DNA from: Stramenopiles sp. TOSAG23-3
Lineage: Eukaryota
Reading direction: 5' to 3'
Length of the DNA stretch: 38,036 nt
Assembly: GCA_900128585.1 (NCBI GenBank)
Contig: LT642188.1
Coordinates: 1-38,036 of the forward strand
The notes under the pieces are model-generated. The model saw nothing but the letters and a program-made list of their open reading frames with translations. It was not told the origin of the DNA and ran no database searches. Numbering within the stretch: the stretch's first letter is position 1; each line of letters begins with the position of its first letter. Position numbers and translations under genes: made by a program. Shown here in pieces: positions 5,702 through 32,200 of this stretch.

Positions 5702-6083
5702 GGTTCTGTAATTTCGTTGGTCAAGATTCCAATTGATTGGTCTCAAAAGTACACAGCGGCATAAATGTTTTAAAGGGGCTCGTTGTCTGTGGTACTGCTC
5801 AATGAAATAATGATCTCGGTATATTGAGTTTGATCGTTTCGTGGTCGTATACACATACAGATGTAAGTCCATTCAGGGACTTTGATTGGGACTTGGATCG
5901 ATTTGTTGATTACAGATCGCACCTTTAACAAGAAAAGAAACATTTATCACTTGGCATGAATTGACTTTGCGTGCGTAATAAAGTAAATTATATTATTTTA
6001 TTTTCACACTTCGTGTGTATGATACAAATATTTATCAATATCATTACCTTGGTATCATAATAAGATTTTTAAGAAATAATTTT

Positions 6084-9002
6084 TTAGTTAGACATTTGGA
6101 TCCTCACGTTCATGTCCTTTGGATTTGGTCCACGAAGGGAGTTTTTCGGTGCAAACGATGGTTGCATCCATTTCGGGTCTCCAGAGTCTGGTTTCATCTT
6201 CGACTTTGTGAGAATGATGCCTTCTTCTTGCATTTCGGGCCCACTGGCGGAGCCGGAGCCGGAGCCAGAGCCGCTACCACTACCACTACCACTACCGTCT
6301 TCGGACGACCCCTCGTCTTCGCCGCTACCGCTACCATTCTCTTTCGCCTCCTTCGCCGCTTTGTCTTTCTTTGCCTTAGCGTCTTGGGGGGTATCTACCC
6401 TGCTTACTTCGTCTTTCTTTTTCTCTAATTCGTCCACTTTCTTCTTGGCCGACTTCAAGTCGGATCCCGAGCCACTGCCTTCGCCCGCAGCGCCACTGGC
6501 GCCACTTTCGCCGTCCGAAGGGCCGCTTGCGCCACTGATACCTAATATTTGTTCCAATTCCGAAACTTTCTTGTGGAGCGACAACAACTCGCCTCCGCCA
6601 GAAGCCCCCGACGCCCCGGATCCACCAGATTCATCAGACCCCTCCTCGGCACCTCCCGACTTGCCCATGTCTTGGGGAAGAGTGATTCTACTCTTTTGGT
6701 CCTTCTTGCCTTCGGCCCCACTGGAGCCACTGGAGCCACTTTCGTCGTCGCCGCCGGGGCCACTCGCGCCGGTGGCGCCAACGCCGGTGGCGCCGGTGGG
6801 GATACCCGGGAGGCCGGTCAACTTCAACAAAGAATCAGCGATCTTGCGAAGGGCTTTCGCGTCTTCGCCCTCGTCAATTCCCCCCTTCTCGAGCCCGGAC
6901 ACGCTATCGGCGCCCGCCAACTTTTTTGAAATTTGAAACAATGCGTCTGCGTCTTTGGTATCAACGCCCGCGATCTGCTTTGCAACGTTTGCAATGGCTT
7001 TGCTGTCCGCAAACGGTTGGTCGTCACCGGGGGTATCCGAGGTGGCGTTGCTGCCGTCCATACGGGAGGCAATCAATTTCAAGATGGTTGCGTCTGTCAC
7101 CCCGTTGATGGGGCTGGCCGCGGCCGCACCGCTGGCCCCAGAGGAGTCGGCACTGCCGCTGGCATCCACAGGGCCGGAGGCTCCGCTCGACCCGCTCCCT
7201 CCGCGCAGTTCGGCTTCCAACTCGGCCAACTTTTTCTCCAACGGGGAGGCCTCGCCGGTCGCCCCACCGGTGGCGGTGGAGCCCGAGTCGCTCTTCTTCT
7301 GGGCCTCTAGGGCCTTGACCTTCTTCCAGAGCGCGGCCTTGCTGTCGCCCTTTTGAAAAATGGTGGTCACGGTCGAAGTCGCGCCTTTCGAAACGAAGGT
7401 CCGGGTCAAGGTCTTGTACTCGGGCCCGCTCATGTCTTCGGGCTGCTGGGCTGGCCCACTGGCCGCGTCCTCGTCCTCGTCCTCGGCGGCGCCGGAGGCA
7501 CCAGAGGCGTCGGTGTTGTTCTGCTTCGGCCCGCCGAGCATGTCGCTGGCCATCTTGGCGATCGCCGACATGCGCGTCTTCAGCACATCCAAAGGGGTGG
7601 ACGCGTCAGTCGCGTTCCCCGCGATGGCGTCGTTGCCGGTGGGGCCGGAGGCCGAGGGTTCCGCCGGCCCGGAGGCCGAGGGTTCCTCCGGCCCGGAGGC
7701 CGCGTCCTCGTCGGTCTGGCCGATGGGCTGGCCGATCACCTGCTCTAGCTCCCCGCGAACTTGGTTTGCGGAGTCGACCTTCTCCTGGACGTTGACCGCC
7801 ATGTCGTCTAATTCTGGGGTCCCCCAGCTGGGCGGCTCCTTCTTCTCGCTGGTGTCCTCCTCTTTCTCCTCCTTTTCCACGAACTGCGGTCGGCCGGCCT
7901 CGGCCAAGTACGAGTTCATCTTGGCGAGCAAGAAGTTCTTCCGGTCCTTAACGGCCCGCAAGTACTTCTTCGCGTGCATCGCCGCTTCGTTCGCTTGGTT
8001 GGTCGTCTTCAGCTTCAGGGTGATGTGGGAGTCCTGGGCGGTGCCGGTCTCGTTGTGGACGTCGTCCCTCGCGAGCAAGGAGACGTGGGCGCCGATGGCC
8101 ATCATGGCCTTCAGTTGGCTCTTGGTGAGCACGATCTTGGCCTTGGCCTTGTCGTAGGCGGCGCGGGCCCGCTTGATCCTTTCGTCGCGGAGGGCCTCCA
8201 GCTCGTCCATGGCGCCCTGGTAGGTCAGGCAGGCCTTCTTCTGGGTCACGCTGGCCTTGTCCTTCACCCGGCGCATGGCCTTCACCTTTGGGCGCATGGT
8301 CAGGGTCGACTTGGTGTCGTCCAGGGCCTGCTCGAGGCCCCCGAGGACCTGGTCGCCCCCGGCCTCTTTCTGGTCCTGGTGGGCCCCGGTGATGGCGATG
8401 TGGGCGGTTTTCAGCTTTCCGACGAGCAGGTCTCGCTCCTCCTCGTACGCTTCCGTGGCCTTGGTCTCCATTGCGGTGGCCTTGTCGCACGCCTCTTTGG
8501 TCATCTCCACCTTCTTCTTGGCCGCGGCGAAGACTGGGTCTTCCGGTTCGGCGGGCTTGGGCTTGGGCTTGGGCTTGGGCTTGGGGGACGCGCCGCCGGT
8601 GGCGGTGTGGTTGGTCTTGTTCGTCGGGGTCTCGTCGGTGTCGACGTCCTCGCTCACCTCCAGGAATGAGGTCCCGGCGAAGGAGAGCGCGGTGTCGCGC
8701 TCGACGCGCGGGCGGGCGGCGTACGTCTTGGCGGCGGCCTTCAGCGCCATTTCAAGCTCCTGCTTCTCCATGGCCTGCTCCTTGGACGCGGTGGCGACGA
8801 CAGAGGCATGCTCTATGTGGTGGTGCTTGGGCGCACCGCCAAGGTTCAAGTGTTTCACGACCTTTGCCTTGTGGTACCCATTGTCGTGGTGGGCGGTGTG
8901 GTGCTTCGCCGCCGCTGCTGGGTGATTGCTGGCATGGTGGTGTCCCCCGTTGACTGCCGCAACGGCACCCAACACAACGAGCGCAGTGATACCTCTCTTC
9001 AT
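6084..9002 (-). CDS. Secreted Ser/Gly/acidic-rich coiled-coil protein (proteoglycan- or matrix-like), unknown family
   Basis: 972-aa ORF. Signal peptide MKRGITALVVLGAVAAVNG, His-rich segment, (KP)n, helical core with 2 Cys, and many SG/SGP/SGASG/ATG motifs among D/E residues. Confidence 0.85.
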   Translation of the reverse strand: MKRGITALVVLGAVAAVNGGHHHASNHPAAAAKHHTAHHDNGYHKAKVVKHLNLGGAPKHHHIEHASVVATASKEQAMEKQELEMALKAAAKTYAARPRVERDTALSFAGTSFLEVSEDVDTDETPTNKTNHTATGGASPKPKPKPKPKPAEPEDPVFAAAKKKVEMTKEACDKATAMETKATEAYEEERDLLVGKLKTAHIAITGAHQDQKEAGGDQVLGGLEQALDDTKSTLTMRPKVKAMRRVKDKASVTQKKACLTYQGAMDELEALRDERIKRARAAYDKAKAKIVLTKSQLKAMMAIGAHVSLLARDDVHNETGTAQDSHITLKLKTTNQANEAAMHAKKYLRAVKDRKNFLLAKMNSYLAEAGRPQFVEKEEKEEDTSEKKEPPSWGTPELDDMAVNVQEKVDSANQVRGELEQVIGQPIGQTDEDAASGPEEPSASGPAEPSASGPTGNDAIAGNATDASTPLDVLKTRMSAIAKMASDMLGGPKQNNTDASGASGAAEDEDEDAASGPAQQPEDMSGPEYKTLTRTFVSKGATSTVTTIFQKGDSKAALWKKVKALEAQKKSDSGSTATGGATGEASPLEKKLAELEAELRGGSGSSGASGPVDASGSADSSGASGAAAASPINGVTDATILKLIASRMDGSNATSDTPGDDQPFADSKAIANVAKQIAGVDTKDADALFQISKKLAGADSVSGLEKGGIDEGEDAKALRKIADSLLKLTGLPGIPTGATGVGATGASGPGGDDESGSSGSSGAEGKKDQKSRITLPQDMGKSGGAEEGSDESGGSGASGASGGGELLSLHKKVSELEQILGISGASGPSDGESGASGAAGEGSGSGSDLKSAKKKVDELEKKKDEVSRVDTPQDAKAKKDKAAKEAKENGSGSGEDEGSSEDGSGSGSGSGSGSGSGSASGPEMQEEGIILTKSKMKPDSGDPKWMQPSFAPKNSLRGPNPKDMNVRIQMSN

Positions 9003-22689: not shown

Positions 22690-22765
22690 AGAAGAAGAAA
22701 TAAAAAAAGAAGAAGAAGAAAAGAAGAAAGAAAGAGTCGAAAGAAAGAAAGAAAGAAAGTGTCGA

Positions 22766-22817
<52 letters not shown>

Positions 22818-22819
22818 AC
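22690..22819 (+). repeat. (GAA)/(GAAA)n polypurine tract
   Basis: Read directly from the sequence. Confidence 0.95.
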
Positions 22820-23151
22820 GATGATCCGTATATATGTCGTAAGGTAATAGTCTATCTAAATCCAATACTGACTTATTGCTAGTATTAGTACTATCAATGC
22901 AATAAAATATATTATTGTAATAAATACCTTAATTATTGTTAGGCATATTCCTGCGTCTTCAACATTTTTTGAAGATGTCTTTTATGTGTTGGGATCTTTG
23001 GGGAGAAAATACGAAAAGAAGGATCCGGAATTCATCCAGCGACTCTGAAACTTTATAAAATTTAAGAATATTTGAAGTGAATGTATATACACAAAACCAT
23101 CGTGCTTAAATATAAAGAGAATTAAAGAGAAAGCTTTTCTGACACACATTC

Positions 23152-23694
23152 TTAATAAGGAAAGCAGGCGTATTCTCCACAGCAGTCATGGCCAATAGGG
23201 ACGGCCTTTTCCCCTAGCCTGCATTTTGGCCCGTACTTTTTTGACCGGTGAGTGCAAATGACATCGCTGCACATCTTCTCCATCTCGTCGAAGCGCTTGG
23301 TCCACTTGATCATAATGTATCCCCCGCGCTCTCTCCTCAAACGGCGCGGGCGGGCGCACTCGTAATTGCAGCATCCAGGTCCACTTTTTCTTATATGGAA
23401 ACCTCGAGGGCAAGCCGGCCTACGGCACATGAATTGAGCACAGTTCAAGGGTCCTCGTGCAACAAGCCCAACCTCCTCATTTGCATCGTCCATCTCGTCC
23501 CATTTGTGAGTAAAGTCAATCTTAACGTACCCGCCGTCCCCAACTGCCTCCTCGGCATCGTCCATCTTGTCCCATTTGTGAGTAAAGTCAATCTTAACGT
23601 ACCCGCCGTCCCCTGGTGGTTGAGCAACAGCTGGCGGAGCCGCCAACAGCGCAAGCCCAACAGTGCCAAGTATGAAAAGGTGAAGCTTATGCAT
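23152..23694 (-). CDS. Small secreted repeat-containing precursor with two 6-Cys modules
   Basis: Signal peptide ending PAVA. Two 24-aa repeats GDGGYVKIDFTHKWD[KE]MDDA[EN]E[AE]V. Cys module, then RPRRLRR, then a third core RGGYIMIKWTKRFDEME, then a second Cys module. Confidence 0.88.
   Translation of the reverse strand: MHKLHLFILGTVGLALLAAPPAVAQPPGDGGYVKIDFTHKWDKMDDAEEAVGDGGYVKIDFTHKWDEMDDANEEVGLVARGPLNCAQFMCRRPACPRGFHIRKSGPGCCNYECARPRRLRRERGGYIMIKWTKRFDEMEKMCSDVICTHRSKKYGPKCRLGEKAVPIGHDCCGEYACFPY
23470..23613 (-). repeat. 72-nt coding tandem duplication (2 units)
   Basis: gcatcgtccatc...catttgtgagtaaagtcaatcttaacgtacccgccgtcccc recurs at a 72-nt offset (23483 and 23555). Confidence 0.95.
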
Positions 23695-24537
23695 TGATTT
23701 CTTTGTTCAATGAAACCAAGAAGTTTCTTTCGCTTATTTACGAGGTAACAGAAAACTTGTCTGTAGAATTATAATCAAATGAAGGATAAACCTTTATCAT
23801 TTTTATATTTTCTATCATCAAAATCATCTTCTTCAACAACATTTTTTTTTTTTTAATTCTATCTCTTCTTCTCTCTCTCTCTCTTCTTCTTCTTCTTTCA
23901 TCTCTCTCTTCTTTCTTCGTTCTTCTATCATCATCATGTTCTCTCCTCATTTAAAATTTTATCAACAACTAACTACCACCTACTTCCCCAGTTCCTTCTT
24001 CTGCCTGTCACCTGTACCGTACTAACTATTTTATTATTGGCAGCTGTTTTTTTTATTTGATGTTATTTCTATACTATGGTACCCGTACTGTCTCTCCTTC
24101 CTTCTCCAGTGCGTTCTGTAGTACTTATTTATTTGTAATCTTTTTTTTTTTGTACTGAAACAAAATTACTTTTTTTAAGGGTGTGTATGAATGAATCCGT
24201 AATTCTGAAGGGAACCAGCTAAAATATACCTTACTTATAAAATAAAACAATACCAATTGTTTCCTATTCAATTGCTATCATTTTTATTGGTTCTCCCGTG
24301 ATTTCTATCGTATTTATATATTAATGTATTATATGTTATTACCTGTATCTAAATTTTTTTCCTTTTTTTTTTTTATAGGACTAATTAATTATATTTATTA
24401 CACTTTTTTTTTTTCCTGTTTTTTTTTTTTTTGTCATCCTACCACCTACCGGTATGAGTAAAAAAAAAGCAATAAATAGCGCAACAAATAGTCTAGAAGA
24501 TCGGAATGAATTGAAATAAATGAAGAGAAAACGTTAG

Positions 24538-27465: not shown

Positions 27466-27573
27466 CCTCTTTCTTCTTTTCTTCTTCTTCTTCTTTCTTT
27501 CTTCTTCTTTCTTTCTTCTTTCTTCTTCTTTCTTCTTCTTTCTTCTTCTTTCTTCTTCTTTCTTCTTCTTTCT
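27466..27573 (+). repeat. (CTT)/(CTTT)n polypyrimidine tract
   Basis: Read directly from the sequence. Confidence 0.95.
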
Positions 27574-29296
27574 ATATAGAATCAACAACAAACAAACAAG
27601 AAGAAGTGCAATGTAATAAAGGTCATCTCTCTCTTCTAATTCTCTCTCTCTCTCTCTCTCTATTTTTTATTATAGTCTCTATCTCCTCTACGTAGTTTAC
27701 TTATCTTAGACTAGCTAATAATTAAATAACGGTAGACTATGAGGTACCGGTATTGTTTTAAAACCTCACCTCGTACGTTACGAGGAGTAGAGCTGAGGAA
27801 ATTTAGTATTTAGTTTGTCTCGTACTGTAGTATTCATATTTGGTATTATTTTATTCGTTTTGTATTCTAATGTATTTTGATAGGAATATCTTACATTGGT
27901 AGACAGGGACGGTCGAGTTGGTTTGTACTCTATTCGTGGGTCTAGCTCCCCGTGTAATGTAATGTACAATGAAGAACAGAACGTGATGATGGTATTTCTA
28001 TTAGATGAAAAGGTGACAAAACGCCTGTGGTATTTCTATATATACAGTATGAAAAGCGACAAAACTACTTTGTACTCTAATTTAATGTTTCCTGGCTGAA
28101 TTTTGAATTAATTGTACAGGATCCTTCTGATAATTAAGGTAAATGTATTTATTATTAAATTAACTTTTATTTATAATAACAATATAATAGAAAATACAAA
28201 ATAGTATTCATTTTGTGTATATATACTTAATTATGAAGCAATCTCGATGTTCTAAAAAAACTGAATTTTCGGTACTGTATATACCCTACCCTGTATTAAT
28301 ATACGTTTTTAAAAAAATAAACGAGGAATCGAATCATTCCAGAATAAAAATAGAGTACGGTACTTTTAAATTACAATTAAAACAGTGATCACGACGGAGC
28401 ACTCCTCGTACTTCTTATAAATAATAATAATAGCTGTGTGAGGTTCGATCGATCTTCGAGAAGACGTGGAAAATTCTATCAACAAGTTATTTCGTGGTAA
28501 AAAATCAGTAAACAGAACGAAAGATCCTTTTTTTTTCTTCCCCTTTGTTCTTCCTGTACTGTACAACATTGTGTTGCGTTACCGGGACTTCGCTTAGCAG
28601 TTAAATAAATTGAAGTACGTGTTAATACGTACGTACGTCCAGCTAGGAGAGGATGAGGAGCACGGATAGATAATGCGAGGACCATTACACAGTCGTAGCA
28701 TTACCAGAGCAGTTCAAATTTGGAGTTGATCGTTCGTTCGATAATAATAATAATTATGGTACACAGAAGGAAATGACCACCCACCATCCATACATCCATA
28801 CCATATTACAATTTGATTTGACTACTACTACCTCGAATGATAGCTAACTGTACTTAAAAATACTGTACTCCTTGATTTTAAAGATATAAATAATAAAGAA
28901 GTTCTATATTATATAGTGTCTACGTGTCTAATTCCTTTAATTATTACTCAAAAATAATAAAAGAAAAACAACACCCTTAGCTTACGAGTAAGTTGAAAGT
29001 ATGTAGGTCTACACAGCATTGCGCAGGAGGATTAAAAATTATAATTTTAATAAAGAAGATGAATGACAGACAAGACAAGACAGATTAGCAGACAGACAAG
29101 ACAGACTAGCTGATAGTCGGAATAGTTAACAAACTATTACAGACAAGTGGAAAACAATCAAACTGCGGAGTTTAGGAGACATGACAAAAGCTTGCGTCAT
29201 TCGTCCAATTCACAATTTAGAACACGGAAGACAAAGTAGCTAAATCCGTGCTGTGTAATCTTGTTGTTGTTTCTGGAAACACAAAGCAGGGAGATA

Positions 29297-32200
29297 ATGT
29301 CAGATTCTCCCTCCCGGGACCGGGCTGACACCGTTGACAAAGGCGTAGAACTCAAAAGGGTAAAGAAAACGGAGTTTGCAAAACGCCAAAAGTCTCACAT
29401 GGAAAGACACGACACGTTCAAAACGCCAGAGAAATTAAAGCTTGACCGTGAAGAAATCTTGAGTCGGGTATTATCCGTGCGCCCAGACCTTTCGCGAGAA
29501 CGGGGGGGGCACATCGTAGACGATGTACTGCACAAGTACGATAACCACCCAAGGATATTGGCCAACATAATGGACGACCAAGAGAAGCTGAATCGCTTGG
29601 TGAAGGAATTTTGCCCGCACAATACCAGCAAGTGGGCATTTAAAAAGATTCGGGATAAAACAAGGCACTCTATCCGAGAGAAACTCACGGGGCACGGCAT
29701 CGGCGAGGTCTGGGATAGCACTATACTGCTAGCCAGTTTTGTTACTGTTGTGGTGTACGTCGGGGAGACGTACACGGACGGTTTCGACAGCAGTGCGAAG
29801 GAGACGTACGTGACCGTACTTGTATGGACTGATTTTGTGTGCACGCTCTTTTTCCTGTTGGATTTTCTTCTCCATACGGTCGCCGCGGTTCCCTTTTGGA
29901 ATAAAACGTTCGGCGGGTGGTTTTCGTACCCCGCCTACCCTTTTGGCGGCGGCATCATTGATCTGCTCACGGTGGTCCCGTATTTCGTCACCCTCGCAGT
30001 CTTCGGCCCTACGTCTCCCGATATTGGGGACTCGTCTGCAAAGGGTTACATATTTCAAGAACAATTCATTAATAAGGACACAGGCACAATAAAATTTGGG
30101 ATCATCATCATATTGCTGCTGCGCATGCTTCGTGTAATCAAGACGCTCCGCTTTACCAGGGAAGTGCGGCTGGAAAACTGCTTGCGTACGCAGGCTGGGA
30201 TGCAAACCACTTACGCAAAACTTACTGCCATCATAGTGTCGATGTTCTTGGGGTATTTTTGCTTCTTCGCCAGTGTCATATACTTGCTGGAGTATGAACT
30301 TGAACAGCTTCAAGTTGCAATTCACAACCAAGAGTGCCCTTCAAGCTCGTACACCTCGTATCCCTGGGCAACGTGCCCCTCCCTTTGCGTCTCGTCCTCG
30401 GGCTGCCAGGAGCTGACATGGTTCTCGTCCATGTGGATGATCGTAGTAACGTTCACAACCGTAGGGTACGGGGACATCAGCCCCGTGACGGTGTTGGGGC
30501 AAGCGTTTGGGATGATCATCTTGATCATTGGGGTTGGTCTTATCGGTCTAAAAATCGGGGACATGACCACTATCATTACCACGGCCAACGCATACAAAAG
30601 TCCCTACAAGACGATAGAGGAGATTGGCCACATCATCGTTACCGGTACGATCACCAAGGTAAGTCTTAAAGCGCTCCTGAACGAACATTTTCACCCCGAC
30701 CATATGACTCCGGAGAAGTTCGAAGTCGAGGACGTGGTTATTATGAACCCGACTGCCCCCCCTCCGTTTGTGATGCACATGCTCGTTCACGGGGACCACG
30801 CGCTGAAAGTGAGCTATTACGAAGGGGATGTCATGAGCCAGGAGGACCTGGATAACGTTGCGATTAACCAGGCAAAGCACGTGCATCTTCTTGTAAACCC
30901 TGAAGCACCGAACCATGAACTTGACGATGCCAGAATCATGGTCCGAGCGACTGCCTTGAAAAGCCACAATCCGAACGTGACTATTCATGCTCAGTGTCAT
31001 TTGATTGTCACGAAACGGCATTTGGAGAAGCTGATGACACGAGGGACGGAACAGCATTGCCCAGACGCCGTCGTTTGCCTCGATCTGTTGAAAGCTCGAA
31101 TGTTTGCCCAGAACTGCTTGTGCCCAGGATCGTCGACGTTGATTGCGAATCTCTTCGCGTCGTTTTCTGGCCCAGAAAACGCTGTGTACAAAGAAAGTGA
31201 GGCCTTCCTTGACAACTACTTTCATGGATGTGACCAAGAACTGTACTCGAAGCGGGCCCCCACCTGCCTGCAACACCGTTCGTTTGAAGAGGCGGCAGAT
31301 GCAATCTTCCGTGGCCACTTCATAACAAAGGAGGACGGTCCGGACGATGAAGACGAGCCGGGGGGCGTCGTGCTTATCGGGGTAGTAGAAAACCCAGATA
31401 ATGTCGGGAACGAAAAAGGGACGCGCAGAAGAGTCTTAATTAACCCAGGCAAAGACTACCTTATTCCGTCCGATTGCAAGCTCCTTTTGATCGCCGATGA
31501 CGAGGAGGTCGCAACTGCTGTAATGTACGCAACCGAAACTCCAAGAAAAAGCAAGCACAACAAGTACCTTGCTGGGCAAATGCGCATCAATCTGCACCCT
31601 GACAACCACCCGCACAACACCAATATGGAACAGTTAGAGCGTTCGCGGGACGAGAGGGCGGCGCGGCGGAAATCGCTGAACAGGAAGAGCATGAGAAAAG
31701 CTAAGGAATCGGCAGAAGTTGTAGAATTGCAGAGCAATGAGGTCACGTCTGCTCTCTCTAAGGCCCTCGCAAACGGGACCGATGCAGACCACATTAAAAT
31801 TTTAGTTGAGCACACTAAAAAAATTGACAAGAAGTTAGACTCTTTGAGCAAAATGCGCAAAGCAAGGCACAAGATGCGCCTGCATTGGAGGCACCTTGAC
31901 GCGTTCGACGAAGTGGACACGTCCCACCATCTGAAATTCCACAACCATATTGTTATTTGTGGAGACAATCCGAGGCTCAGCGTTTTCGTCGCGTCCGTGC
32001 GGGAATGCCTACCAAAACATTTGGGGCAAGATGGCACTACCGCTAACATCCCCATTGTCGTGCTCAGCCAAACGGATGCCATGCATGGTGGCCGAGCTGC
32101 CTGGGGATTTGGTTTGGAAGAAGTCCCAGAGCACATGATTGCCGACGTTTATCATGCCCAGGGAAATCCGGGAAAATCTCACGATTTGATGGAAGTCTGC

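What the first reader, a model, noticed from the sequence alone, without database searches (positions are those of the whole stretch)
23152..23694. Candidate multi-core secreted peptide precursor whose cores resemble outer-membrane-protein beta-signals
Seen: after a signal peptide (mature N-terminus likely Gln) there are three homologous cores, GGYVKIDFTHKW x2 and GGYIMIKWTKRF. Each is followed by D[K/E]M[D/E] and preceded by the signal peptide plus QPPGD, an acidic spacer (DDAEEAVG) or a polybasic site (RPRRLRRER). Two C-x4-C-xn-C-x12-CC-x3/4-C modules are interleaved. Two cores arose by a recent 72-nt duplication. Knowledge: signal peptide plus repeated cores plus conserved flanks is the layout of kexin-processed and RiPP-like precursors. 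Bacterial beta-signals end in an aromatic residue with alternating hydrophobics upstream (Neisseria PorA ends GLRHKF), and darobactin kills by mimicking this strand at BamA. Inference: the cores have exactly this periodicity (W/F at -1, F/W at -5, I at -7, V/I at -9). They could be released antibacterial, pore-forming or amyloid beta-strand peptides delivered with disulfide-rich modules, which would be an undescribed protist peptide system.
Basis: partly seen in the sequence, partly recalled or inferred. Interest (0 to 1): 0.8.

Follow-up and report, generated by a model that had tools for sequence, protein, structure and literature searches.

The report
Small secreted cysteine-rich protein with repeated module
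This is a real, expressed gene of a marine single-celled eukaryote for a small secreted protein built from cysteine-rich units and a short conserved strand-like unit whose copy number varies in nature, but nothing found here shows that the unit is cut out as an antibacterial peptide.

Summary
Window 23152-23694 (-) is an intronless 180-aa ORF with a signal-peptide-like N-terminus, three homologous cores, two 6-Cys modules and a 72-nt tandem duplication (66/72 identical). RNA contigs from three metatranscriptome studies cover only ~23099-23733, so it is transcribed.

Only three other small secreted lineages are related (P0004, P0005, P0006/7-type). Each carries one core, so the core is the conserved part and its N-flanks vary. 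Seven of 15 near-identical natural variants have two cores, not three. No dibasic sites bracket the cores. The window's cores meet only 2 of 4 and 1 of 4 positions of the published beta-signal consensus.

The relatives share a layout: a strongly basic Cys-rich body, then RR[L/M]x, then an acidic tail that begins at the core. My best reading (confidence 0.38) is a thionin- or defensin-like pre-pro-protein. The cationic disulfide modules would be the payload, and the conserved anionic module a pro-, sorting or masking piece cleaved at RRLx. Binding to BamA remains untested. This is a new orphan family of moderate interest.

The parts
23099..23733 (-). Approximate transcript: ORF plus about 39 nt of 5' leader and about 53 nt of 3' trailer, no intron
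   Evidence: RNA contigs of X14, X16 and X20 (three studies) are collinear with the DNA and stop at 23099/23109 and 23729-23733. These are contigs, so the ends are approximate.
23152..23694 (-). ORF of 180 aa (P0001), including the stop codon
   Evidence: kept open in 15 of 15 cluster members
23623..23694 (-). Signal-peptide-like N-terminus, residues 1-24, with likely cleavage A-V-A|Q
   Evidence: Read directly from the sequence. The N-termini of relatives P0004 and P0005 are similar. No predictor was run.
23557..23613 (-). Module copy 1, residues 28-46: GDGGYVKIDFTHKWDKMDD
   Evidence: absent from 7 of 15 natural variants
23485..23541 (-). Module copy 2, residues 52-70: GDGGYVKIDFTHKWDEMDD
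   Evidence: With its upstream spacer it is 87% identical in DNA over 79 nt to the module of an otherwise unrelated gene in L002.
23467..23610 (-). Two tandem 72-nt units (23467-23538 and 23539-23610), 66 of 72 identical
   Evidence: A 72-nt skip occurs in one RNA contig and 156-aa variants exist.
23356..23442 (-). Cys module 1, residues 85-113, C-x4-C-x4-C-x12-CC-x3-C; basic and the fastest-changing part among variants
   Evidence: It has the best local AF2 confidence: block mean pLDDT of 76 for residues 91-100, modelled as a beta-hairpin.
23326..23352 (-). Polybasic linker RPRRLRRER, residues 115-123, holding the family-wide RR[L/M] motif (candidate cleavage site)
23275..23325 (-). Module copy 3, residues 124-140: GGYIMIKWTKRFDEMEK (divergent, net charge about +1)
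23164..23271 (-). Cys module 2, residues 142-177, C-x4-C-x10-C-x12-CC-x4-C

Best explanation
The gene encodes a lineage-restricted, secreted, modular pre-pro-protein of a marine picoeukaryote.

Shown:
- It is transcribed without introns.
- It has a signal-peptide-like N-terminus.
- It is built from two kinds of unit: basic 6-Cys (three-disulfide-type) modules, and a conserved module of about 17-26 aa, G-[D/E]-G-x-Y-V-K-[I/V]-x-F-x-x-K-W-D-[E/Q]-[M/L], followed by acidic residues.
- The same module occurs once in each of three other small secreted protein lineages. It sits downstream of the strongly basic Cys-rich body and a conserved RR[L/M] motif: immediately after it in P0004 and P0005, and about 30 residues further on in the P0006/7 type.
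- The extra copy in this gene is a young, polymorphic 72-nt duplication.

Inferred: the family works like thionin or class-II-defensin precursors. The cationic disulfide-rich modules are the stable functional products (antimicrobial, membrane-active or inhibitor-like). The conserved anionic module is a pro-region that masks the charge and/or carries the sorting or processing signal. A secretory-pathway protease separates the two at RR[L/M]x, either subtilase S1P-like (RRXL) or aspartyl ASP5-like (RRLxx).

On this reading the 'cores' are not the payload, and the window's gene is a rearranged member with its acidic modules moved to the N-terminus and doubled.
For: 1. Real gene: RNA contigs of three studies cover ~23099-23733 only, and the ORF is open in 15 of 15 cluster members.
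2. Small family: an exhaustive HMMER search of 1.84 billion representatives gave 5 hits at E<=1e-3. Four are credible (P0002, P0004, P0005, P0006). I set aside the fifth, P0003, a 2652-aa repetitive protein, as low-complexity. The profile search added P0007 to P0010.
3. Shared layout:
- P0004: body net +17, pI 10.0, 12 Cys | RRMI | tail net -12, pI 4.1, 0 Cys, starting at GDG of the core.
- P0005: +12 | RRLQ | -9, again starting at GDG.
- P0006, P0007, P0025 and P0008 types: +12 to +14 | RRLx | -2 to -8.
4. RR[L/M] occurs in all four lineages between the Cys-rich body and the next core. Shuffles of each protein give it in 5-13% of trials.
5. In the window protein the two N-terminal modules carry -4 and -5, against +4 for Cys module 1 and +5 for the linker.
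6. [quoted passage not shown] RRXL is cleaved by plant S1P (PMC9113046, passages). RRLxx is cleaved by Golgi ASP5 at either end of proteins (PMC4764566, abstract and passages).
7. Among variants the Cys module 1 region changes fastest, as expected of an interaction surface. In P0023, by my count on the alignment, 15 of 43 positions in residues 71-113 differ, against 0 of 19 in the N-terminal module.
Against: - No cleavage has been observed, so all processing is inferred from motifs.
- There is no sequence or fold link to any antimicrobial or inhibitor family. The models are of low confidence: mean pLDDT 41.6 and 47.7.
- In the window protein the simple 'basic body, acidic tail' order is broken. 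Core 3 is not acidic and abuts Cys module 2.
- The supposed pro-piece is the most conserved non-Cys part of the family. That is unusual for a disposable pro-region and fits a functional peptide or binding motif equally well.
- pN/pS between two alleles is about 0.95 on only 9 substitutions, which is uninformative.
- The family is tiny, so conservation statistics are weak.
Confidence: 0.38

Rival explanations
1. The protein stays unprocessed and acts as an extracellular or cell-surface protein. The conserved module is a short strand-plus-helix interaction motif used to bind a partner or to self-associate (beta-strand addition). The Cys modules are stable spacers or binding domains. Copy number tunes valency.
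For: - The module is conserved as a unit with its D-[E/Q]-[M/L] continuation and acidic flank.
- It has moved between otherwise unrelated genes. Its DNA is 87% identical over 79 nt between the window and L002 while the rest of the two genes does not match.
- It varies in copy number.
- AF2 models each copy as a strand followed by a helix, at low confidence.
Against: - The conserved RR[L/M]x lies directly before GDG in P0004 and P0005, and the body and tail differ sharply in charge. Both look more like a processing junction.
- No partner is known.
- No confident fold was obtained.
Confidence: 0.3
2. One reading: a multi-core precursor from which the 12-aa beta-strand cores are released as antibacterial, pore-forming or amyloid peptides that mimic the outer-membrane-protein beta-signal at BamA.
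For: - A signal peptide plus repeated conserved cores.
- One face of the strand is hydrophobic (V, I, F, x, W) and it ends in an aromatic residue.
- 2 of the 6 distinct family cores (P0005 and a P0024 variant) meet all four positions of the published beta-signal consensus.
- Tethered beta-signal mimics exist in bacterial Llp / L-type pyocins (bioRxiv 10.64898/2026.09.25.754295, abstract and section 11).
- RR[L/M]x would free an N-terminus at or near GDG.
Against: - The window's own cores meet only 2 of 4 and 1 of 4 consensus positions.
- No cleavage motif follows any core, and every core continues into conserved D-[E/Q/K]-[M/L].
- Relatives have one core, and 7 of 15 alleles have two.
- The cores are conserved, not variable.
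- No modifying enzyme lies among the 10 neighbouring ORFs scanned.
- No relative was found in prokaryote or viral contigs.
Confidence: 0.07
3. A secreted protease inhibitor or ligand trap. The Cys modules are small inhibitor- or VWC-like knots, and the acidic, Tyr/Phe-rich tails act as exosite-binding (possibly sulfated) tails, as in hirudin-type inhibitors. That comparison is recalled, not tested.
For: - The Cys spacing resembles the C-terminal half of VWC (recalled).
- P0004 gives a sub-threshold Pfam VWC match: E 0.7, 10.7 bits against a cutoff of 27.6.
- Relatives have acidic aromatic tails such as the D/E/Y/F-rich end of P0004.
Against: - The Pfam match is far below threshold, and P0001 itself gave no such match.
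- There is no PDB relative.
- This reading does not explain the conserved core or RR[L/M].
Confidence: 0.1
4. A fast-evolving orphan ORF with no selected function, whose repeats reflect replication slippage only.
For: - pN/pS is about 0.95 between two alleles.
- The family is tiny.
- One variant (P0018) has a frameshifted tail.
Against: - It is transcribed in three studies.
- The ORF is open in 15 of 15 variants, all 12 Cys are kept in the full-length forms apart from one C-to-W change in P0021, and the module is conserved down to about 40% overall identity.
Confidence: 0.05

Closest known systems
Thionin (and, as recalled, class II plant defensin) preproproteins
   Same: A signal peptide, then a basic disulfide-rich peptide, then an acidic domain removed by a secretory-pathway subtilase (PMC8279376, passages). 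The relatives P0004 and P0005 have exactly this charge layout.
   Different: No sequence similarity was detected. The acidic part here has no cysteines but does hold a conserved strand motif. The modules are repeated and, in the window gene, permuted so that the acidic modules come first. Processing is unproven.
RRXL (plant S1P; RALF precursors) and RRLxx (Toxoplasma ASP5 'TEXEL') cleavage motifs
   Same: An RR-L motif in secretory proteins marks the junction between the pro-piece and the product (PMC9113046 and PMC4764566, passages). RR[L/M] is conserved at the junction between body and module in all four lineages.
   Different: This is a three- to four-residue motif match only. The protease repertoire of this organism could not be examined because no genome is held. 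One member has M in place of L.
Beta-signal mimics at BamA: darobactin and the C-terminal peptides of Llp / L-type pyocins
   Same: An amphipathic strand with an aromatic end, carried in relatives at the C-terminal side of a folded body, much like Llp architecture.
   Different: The window's cores fail the Gly position and the -3 position of the aromatic/hydrophobic dyad. The +2 'cap' (aromatic or His) described for Llps is E, Q or K here. The producer is a eukaryote. Binding is untested. Supplementary Data 13 of that paper, which lists the Llp peptides, could not be seen.
Multi-copy peptide precursors of the yeast alpha-factor or neuropeptide type (recalled)
   Same: A signal peptide and tandem copies of a conserved short peptide, with variable copy number.
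   Different: Those cores are bracketed by dibasic sites. Here no basic residue follows any core and only core 3 has a basic stretch before it.
von Willebrand factor type C domain, C-terminal half
   Same: Similar cysteine spacing ending in CC-x(2-4)-C (recalled). A weak Pfam VWC alignment covers residues 51-95 of P0004 against profile positions 15-57 of 57.
   Different: E = 0.7, far below the gathering score, and P0001 gave no match. Only six of the ten VWC cysteines would be present.

Membership tests
Kexin-type multi-core peptide precursor | N-terminal signal peptide | tested here: inconclusive
   A hydrophobic N-terminus with A-V-A|Q is read from the sequence. No predictor was available.
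Kexin-type multi-core peptide precursor | Each core bracketed by dibasic (K/R-R) processing sites | tested here: not met
   Cores 1 and 2 have no basic flank on either side. All three are followed by D-[K/E]-M. Only core 3 is preceded by RRLRRER. The KR inside core 3 varies as KR/KH/KS among alleles.
Kexin-type multi-core peptide precursor | Several cores as a stable family property | tested here: not met
   Relatives P0004, P0005, P0006 and P0007 carry one core. Seven of the 15 cluster members carry two.
RiPP-like precursor | Variable cores between fixed recognition flanks | tested here: not met
   The core is the conserved element and the N-flanks differ in every lineage.
RiPP-like precursor | Modifying or processing enzyme genes nearby | tested here: not met
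   Pfam on 10 large neighbouring ORFs found TIM, LRR, Med26, methyltransferases, DnaJ/TPR, ATG13, a BK channel, CobW/Sel1 and Mo25, plus one ORF without a match. None is a peptide-modifying enzyme. Eukaryotic genes need not cluster, so this is weak evidence.
OMP beta-signal / beta-signal mimic | Consensus zeta-x-G-x-x-[aromatic/hydrophobic]-x-[aromatic/hydrophobic] (as quoted in the paper read) | tested here: not met
   Window cores: KIDFTHKW meets 2 of 4 positions and MIKWTKRF meets 1 of 4. Of the 6 distinct family octamers, 2 meet all four.
OMP beta-signal / beta-signal mimic | Motif at or within two residues of the C-terminus of the released or tethered peptide | tested here: not met
   In every protein examined the core is followed by at least 8 more residues. 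The shortest case is P0025, which ends 8 residues after the W.
OMP beta-signal / beta-signal mimic | Binding to BamA strand 1 | not tested
Thionin/defensin-type preproprotein (layout, not homology) | Basic disulfide-rich domain plus a separate acidic domain after a signal peptide | tested here: met
   P0004 is +17 / -12 and P0005 is +12 / -9. The window protein has modules of -4 and -5 against Cys module 1 plus linker at +9.
Thionin/defensin-type preproprotein (layout, not homology) | Sequence or fold homology to thionins or defensins | tested here: not met
   No Pfam, PDB or Atlas match. The models were too poor for a fold search.
Thionin/defensin-type preproprotein (layout, not homology) | Proteolytic removal of the acidic domain | not testable with these tools
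   Only the conserved RR[L/M]x motif points to it.
VWC domain (PF00093) | Pfam score above the gathering threshold | tested here: not met
   P0004 scored 10.7 bits against a cutoff of 27.6, E 0.7. P0001 gave no match.

The most novel reading that the evidence does not exclude
The family could be a eukaryotic counterpart of bacterial Llp / L-type pyocin protein antibiotics. A cationic disulfide-rich body would bring the protein to the Gram-negative surface, and a tethered or RRLx-released amphipathic strand (V-K-I-x-F-x-[Y/V/H]-K-W) would add onto BamA strand 1 as a beta-signal mimic. In the window's gene this strand has been multiplied to three copies. That would be the first BAM-directed weapon described from a protist. 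The one literature search I made for a eukaryotic BamA-directed mimic listed only bacterial, synthetic or review items among the 10 of 121 hits shown.
Probability: 0.04. Interest if true: 0.85.

Novelty: new variant of a known kind. Interest (0 to 1): 0.36.

Why it matters
Marine picoeukaryotes carry many orphan secreted proteins whose roles in feeding, defence and cell-surface biology are unknown. This gene gives a compact, expressed example with several useful properties:
- It is present in metagenomes and metatranscriptomes of 16 studies among the holders listed.
- It has a clearly delimited, conserved mini-module that has moved between unrelated genes and varies in copy number within natural populations.
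- It has a conserved RR[L/M] junction that makes a testable prediction about pro-protein processing in a little-studied lineage.

If the cationic Cys modules prove antimicrobial, this would be a new family of protist host-defence or prey-killing peptides. If the strand module proves active, it would be a new kind of peptide effector.

Tried and rejected
- Pfam on P0001 gave only sub-threshold noise (DUF4019, FKBP26_IF and others).
- PHMMER against PDB chains with P0001 and P0004 gave only chance hits (ribosomal eL37 at E 0.04, and others).
- The ESM Atlas gave no usable hit.
- AF2 gave mean pLDDT 41.6 on the single sequence and 47.7 with a 14-row alignment. Both are too poor for a fold search, so none was run.
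It gives no information either way.
- The window's own genome is not held, so no paralogue census was possible.
- The first module alignment (A2) was too diverse for the contig scan. The closer A3 worked after one busy answer.
- The genome-contig scan had 47 pattern matches and 0 relatives. The viral-contig scan had 119 pattern matches and 0 relatives.
- A profile search with P0004 and P0005 added only P0034. This fragment overlaps the C-terminal end of P0005 and runs on into a methyltransferase-like sequence, so the last ~30 residues of P0005 are probably gene-call read-through.
- P0003 (2652 aa, E 1.7e-24, 16 stretches) was set aside as a low-complexity repetitive match without further test.
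- A six-frame motif scan found no further module copy in the 38-kb window.
- The core regex was too strict and found almost nothing. Only its RR[L/M] output was used.
- A literature search for the diatom RXL pro-peptide motif found 0 papers holding all four terms, so that parallel is not used.
- EF-hand, PEXEL and oomycete RxLR readings of the flanks were considered by eye and dropped, because the positions do not fit across the family.
- RNA and DNA parts of the laid stretch without cover are not interpreted.
Full report
**1. What is there**

Window 23152-23694 on the minus strand is an ATG-to-stop ORF of 180 aa, P0001. It lies in a compact eukaryotic region. Coding stretches are GC-rich and intergenic DNA is AT-rich. 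The neighbours are ordinary nuclear genes: triosephosphate isomerase, a DnaJ/TPR protein, ATG13, a BK-type channel, a CobW/Sel1 protein and Mo25.

The protein reads as follows:
- residues 1-24, a signal-peptide-like N-terminus ending A-V-A before Gln25 (by inspection only)
- module copy 1 (28-46)
- module copy 2 (52-70)
- Cys module 1 (85-113, C-x4-C-x4-C-x12-CC-x3-C)
- polybasic linker RPRRLRRER (115-123)
- module copy 3 (124-140)
- Cys module 2 (142-177, C-x4-C-x10-C-x12-CC-x4-C)
- FPY

The 72-nt tandem duplication (23467-23538 / 23539-23610) is 66/72 identical. Five of the six differences lie in the spacer, and the core-coding part is identical.

**2. Is it a real gene?**

The stretch is held by marine metagenomes and metatranscriptomes. 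Twenty rows from 16 studies hold it, six of them RNA. Four runs were laid on 2 kb around the gene. RNA contigs from three different studies (X14, X16, X20; two are polyA libraries) cover ~23099-23733 and nothing else, and they are collinear with the DNA. These are contigs, so they show presence and approximate bounds, not expression level. The gene is transcribed and has no intron.

**3. Relatives**

- A near-length word search found one protein, P0002, at 97% identity (1 hit at E<=0.01 among 280 candidates).
- The exhaustive HMMER search of 1.84 billion representatives found 5 hits at E<=1e-3: P0002, P0003, P0004, P0005 and P0006. I set P0003 aside untested as low-complexity; it is 2652 aa and highly repetitive.
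- A profile search added P0007, plus P0008 to P0010, which are P0006-type bodies without the module (7 hits at E<=1 among 2148 candidates).
- A second profile search with P0004 and P0005 added only a read-through fragment.
- The metagenome contig scan gave 2 relatives among 278 pattern matches. L001 is an allele at 98%. L002 is a P0006-type gene.
- Prokaryote genomes gave 0 relatives among 47 pattern matches, and viral contigs 0 among 119.
- Pfam, PDB sequences and the Atlas gave nothing significant.

This is an orphan family of about four lineages.

**4. What the relatives show**

P0004 and P0005 have this order: signal peptide, two Cys modules of the same spacing, RRMI or RRLQ, one module (GDGFSAQIRFTHTWDQL or GDGPYVKIGFEYKWDQL), then a long acidic, aromatic tail.

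The P0006/P0007 type has a different Cys-rich body, then PPRRL, a small Cys cluster, an acidic stretch, and one module with the same upstream flank as copy 2 of the window (DDAEEAVG-E-G-AYVKVDFKVKWDEMDD). Some alleles stop 8 residues after the Trp. All 12 listed members of those two clusters carry the module. P0008 to P0010 lack it.

Four conclusions follow:
- (a) The module is the conserved element and its N-flanks vary.
- (b) One copy is the norm.
- (c) The module is independent of the Cys modules and can sit N-terminal, internal or C-terminal.
- (d) It has been exchanged at the DNA level. L002 1903-1981 is 87% identical to window 23562-23484, while the rest of the two genes does not match. 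Metatranscriptome contigs of 303-989 nt match only this ~79-nt (or ~32-nt) piece.

**5. Copy number**

Of the 15 members of the window protein's 90% cluster, 7 are 180 aa with three cores. One (P0018) is 158 aa with three cores and a frameshifted tail. Seven are 156 aa and lack exactly one 24-aa unit.

The most divergent member, P0023 (88% identity), is a two-core form. One polyA RNA contig (X16) skips exactly 72 nt. Contigs spanning the copy junction exist in X14, X20 and X5.

Assembly collapse of a repeat with a 45-nt identical stretch cannot be excluded for individual contigs. The divergent two-core lineage nonetheless argues that two cores is the older state and that three is a young, polymorphic duplication.

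**6. Variation**

Between the window and L001 there are 9 nucleotide differences in the ORF, 7 non-synonymous and 2 synonymous. That gives pN/pS of about 0.95, too few changes to interpret.

My count on the alignment for P0023 against P0001:

| Region | Positions differing |
|---|---|
| Residues 71-113 (spacer plus Cys module 1) | 15 of 43 |
| N-terminal module | 0 of 19 |
| Module 3 | 2 of 17 |
| Cys module 2 | 1 of 36 |

The KR inside core 3 is KR, KH or KS among alleles, so it is not a conserved dibasic site.

**7. Charge and junction**

In P0004 the part from the signal-peptide end to RRMI has net charge +17 (pI 10.0, 12 Cys). The rest has -12 (pI 4.1, no Cys) and starts exactly at GDG. 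P0005 gives +12 and -9 with RRLQ|GDG. The P0006, P0007, P0025 and P0008 types give +12 to +14 and -2 to -8.

RR[L/M] is present in all four lineages between the body and the next module. Composition-preserving shuffles produce it in 5-13% of trials per protein.

In the window protein the two N-terminal modules carry -4 and -5. Cys module 1 carries +4, the linker +5, module 3 +1 and Cys module 2 +2.

**8. Mechanism**

The layout of a basic disulfide-rich part and an acidic part joined at a conserved basic-hydrophobic motif matches thionin preproproteins. [quoted passage not shown] The acidic domain is conserved although its function is unknown (PMC8279376, passages).

RRXL is the plant S1P site in RALF precursors (PMC9113046, passages). 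RRLxx is the Golgi ASP5 site in Toxoplasma, used at either end of proteins (PMC4764566, abstract and passages).

I therefore favour, at 0.38, a pre-pro-protein in which the cationic Cys modules are the products. The conserved anionic module would be a masking, sorting or processing piece removed at RR[L/M]x. Shown are transcription, architecture, conservation, charge layout and the motif. Inferred are secretion, cleavage and activity.

The main rival (0.30) is an unprocessed extracellular protein whose module is a strand-type interaction motif.

**9. The beta-signal idea**

The consensus quoted in section 11 of bioRxiv 10.64898/2026.09.25.754295 is zeta-x-G-x-x-[aromatic/hydrophobic]-x-[aromatic/hydrophobic]. 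Octamers ending at the W/F score as follows:

| Octamer | Source | Positions met |
|---|---|---|
| KIDFTHKW | window | 2 of 4 |
| MIKWTKRF | window | 1 of 4 |
| QIRFTHTW | P0004 | 2 of 4 |
| KVDFKVKW | P0006 | 3 of 4 |
| KIGFEYKW | P0005 | 4 of 4 |
| KVGVKVKW | P0024 | 4 of 4 |

The strand is amphipathic and ends in an aromatic residue, so the resemblance is real but generic. It is weakest in the window's own cores. The strand is never terminal and always continues into conserved D-[E/Q/K]-[M/L].

The same paper shows that tethered beta-signal mimics exist in bacterial Llps, a folded body plus a C-terminal peptide. That is the nearest precedent for the boldest reading, which I keep at about 0.04. 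Its Supplementary Data 13 could not be seen.

**10. Structure**

AF2 gave mean pLDDT 41.6 on the single sequence and 47.7 with 14 rows. At low confidence, each module is drawn as a short strand followed by a helix, and Cys module 1 as a hairpin (block mean pLDDT 76 for residues 91-100). No fold search was justified.

A VWC-like reading of the Cys modules rests on recalled spacing and a sub-threshold Pfam match in P0004 (E 0.7). Membership is not met.

**11. Verdict**

Its central claims are not supported: a multi-core precursor with variable cores, kexin or RiPP-type flanks, and beta-signal mimicry.

This is a new orphan family whose layout is a variant of the known pattern of a cationic Cys-rich peptide with an anionic pro-domain. 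It also has an unusual conserved, mobile, copy-number-variable mini-module. Interest is moderate.

Noticed in passing
window 22692-22830 and 27468-27570; L001 1-4349: The allele contig L001 equals the reverse complement of window 22692-23791 joined to window 27468-30656. The two break regions are inverted microsatellites, (GAAA)n and (CTTT/CTT)n. This is either a ~4.8-kb inversion between strains, carrying this gene, a ribosomal-protein-like ORF and ATG13, or an assembly chimera at simple repeats.
   Followed up: partly
window 5780-5868; L002 2491-2577: An ~90-nt non-coding element between two genes is 91% identical to a stretch of the unrelated contig L002. It is single-copy in the window. 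It may be a dispersed repeat or a conserved UTR/RNA element, and it suggests L002 comes from the same or a sister genome.
   Followed up: partly
L002 1480-1992 (+); proteins P0006-P0010, P0024-P0033: A second family of small secreted Cys-rich proteins (conserved body ...YHEKYHGKREDDSVYLCEY..PRRL) has a hypervariable C-terminal end. Some alleles stop 8 residues after the module, some add a short Cys pair ending in RL, and some lack the module altogether.
   Followed up: partly
protein P0018 (cluster of the window protein): One natural variant is frameshifted just after module 3 and lacks Cys module 2 (158 aa). It may be a true truncated allele or an assembly error.
   Followed up: no
window 6084-9002 (-): A 972-aa ORF in the most GC-rich part of the window (65% GC) has no Pfam match at E<=1e-5.
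   Followed up: no
proteins P0005 and P0034: The last ~30 residues of P0005 recur at the start of P0034 and continue into a methyltransferase-like sequence. The end of P0005 is therefore probably read-through into a neighbouring gene on a short contig.
   Followed up: partly
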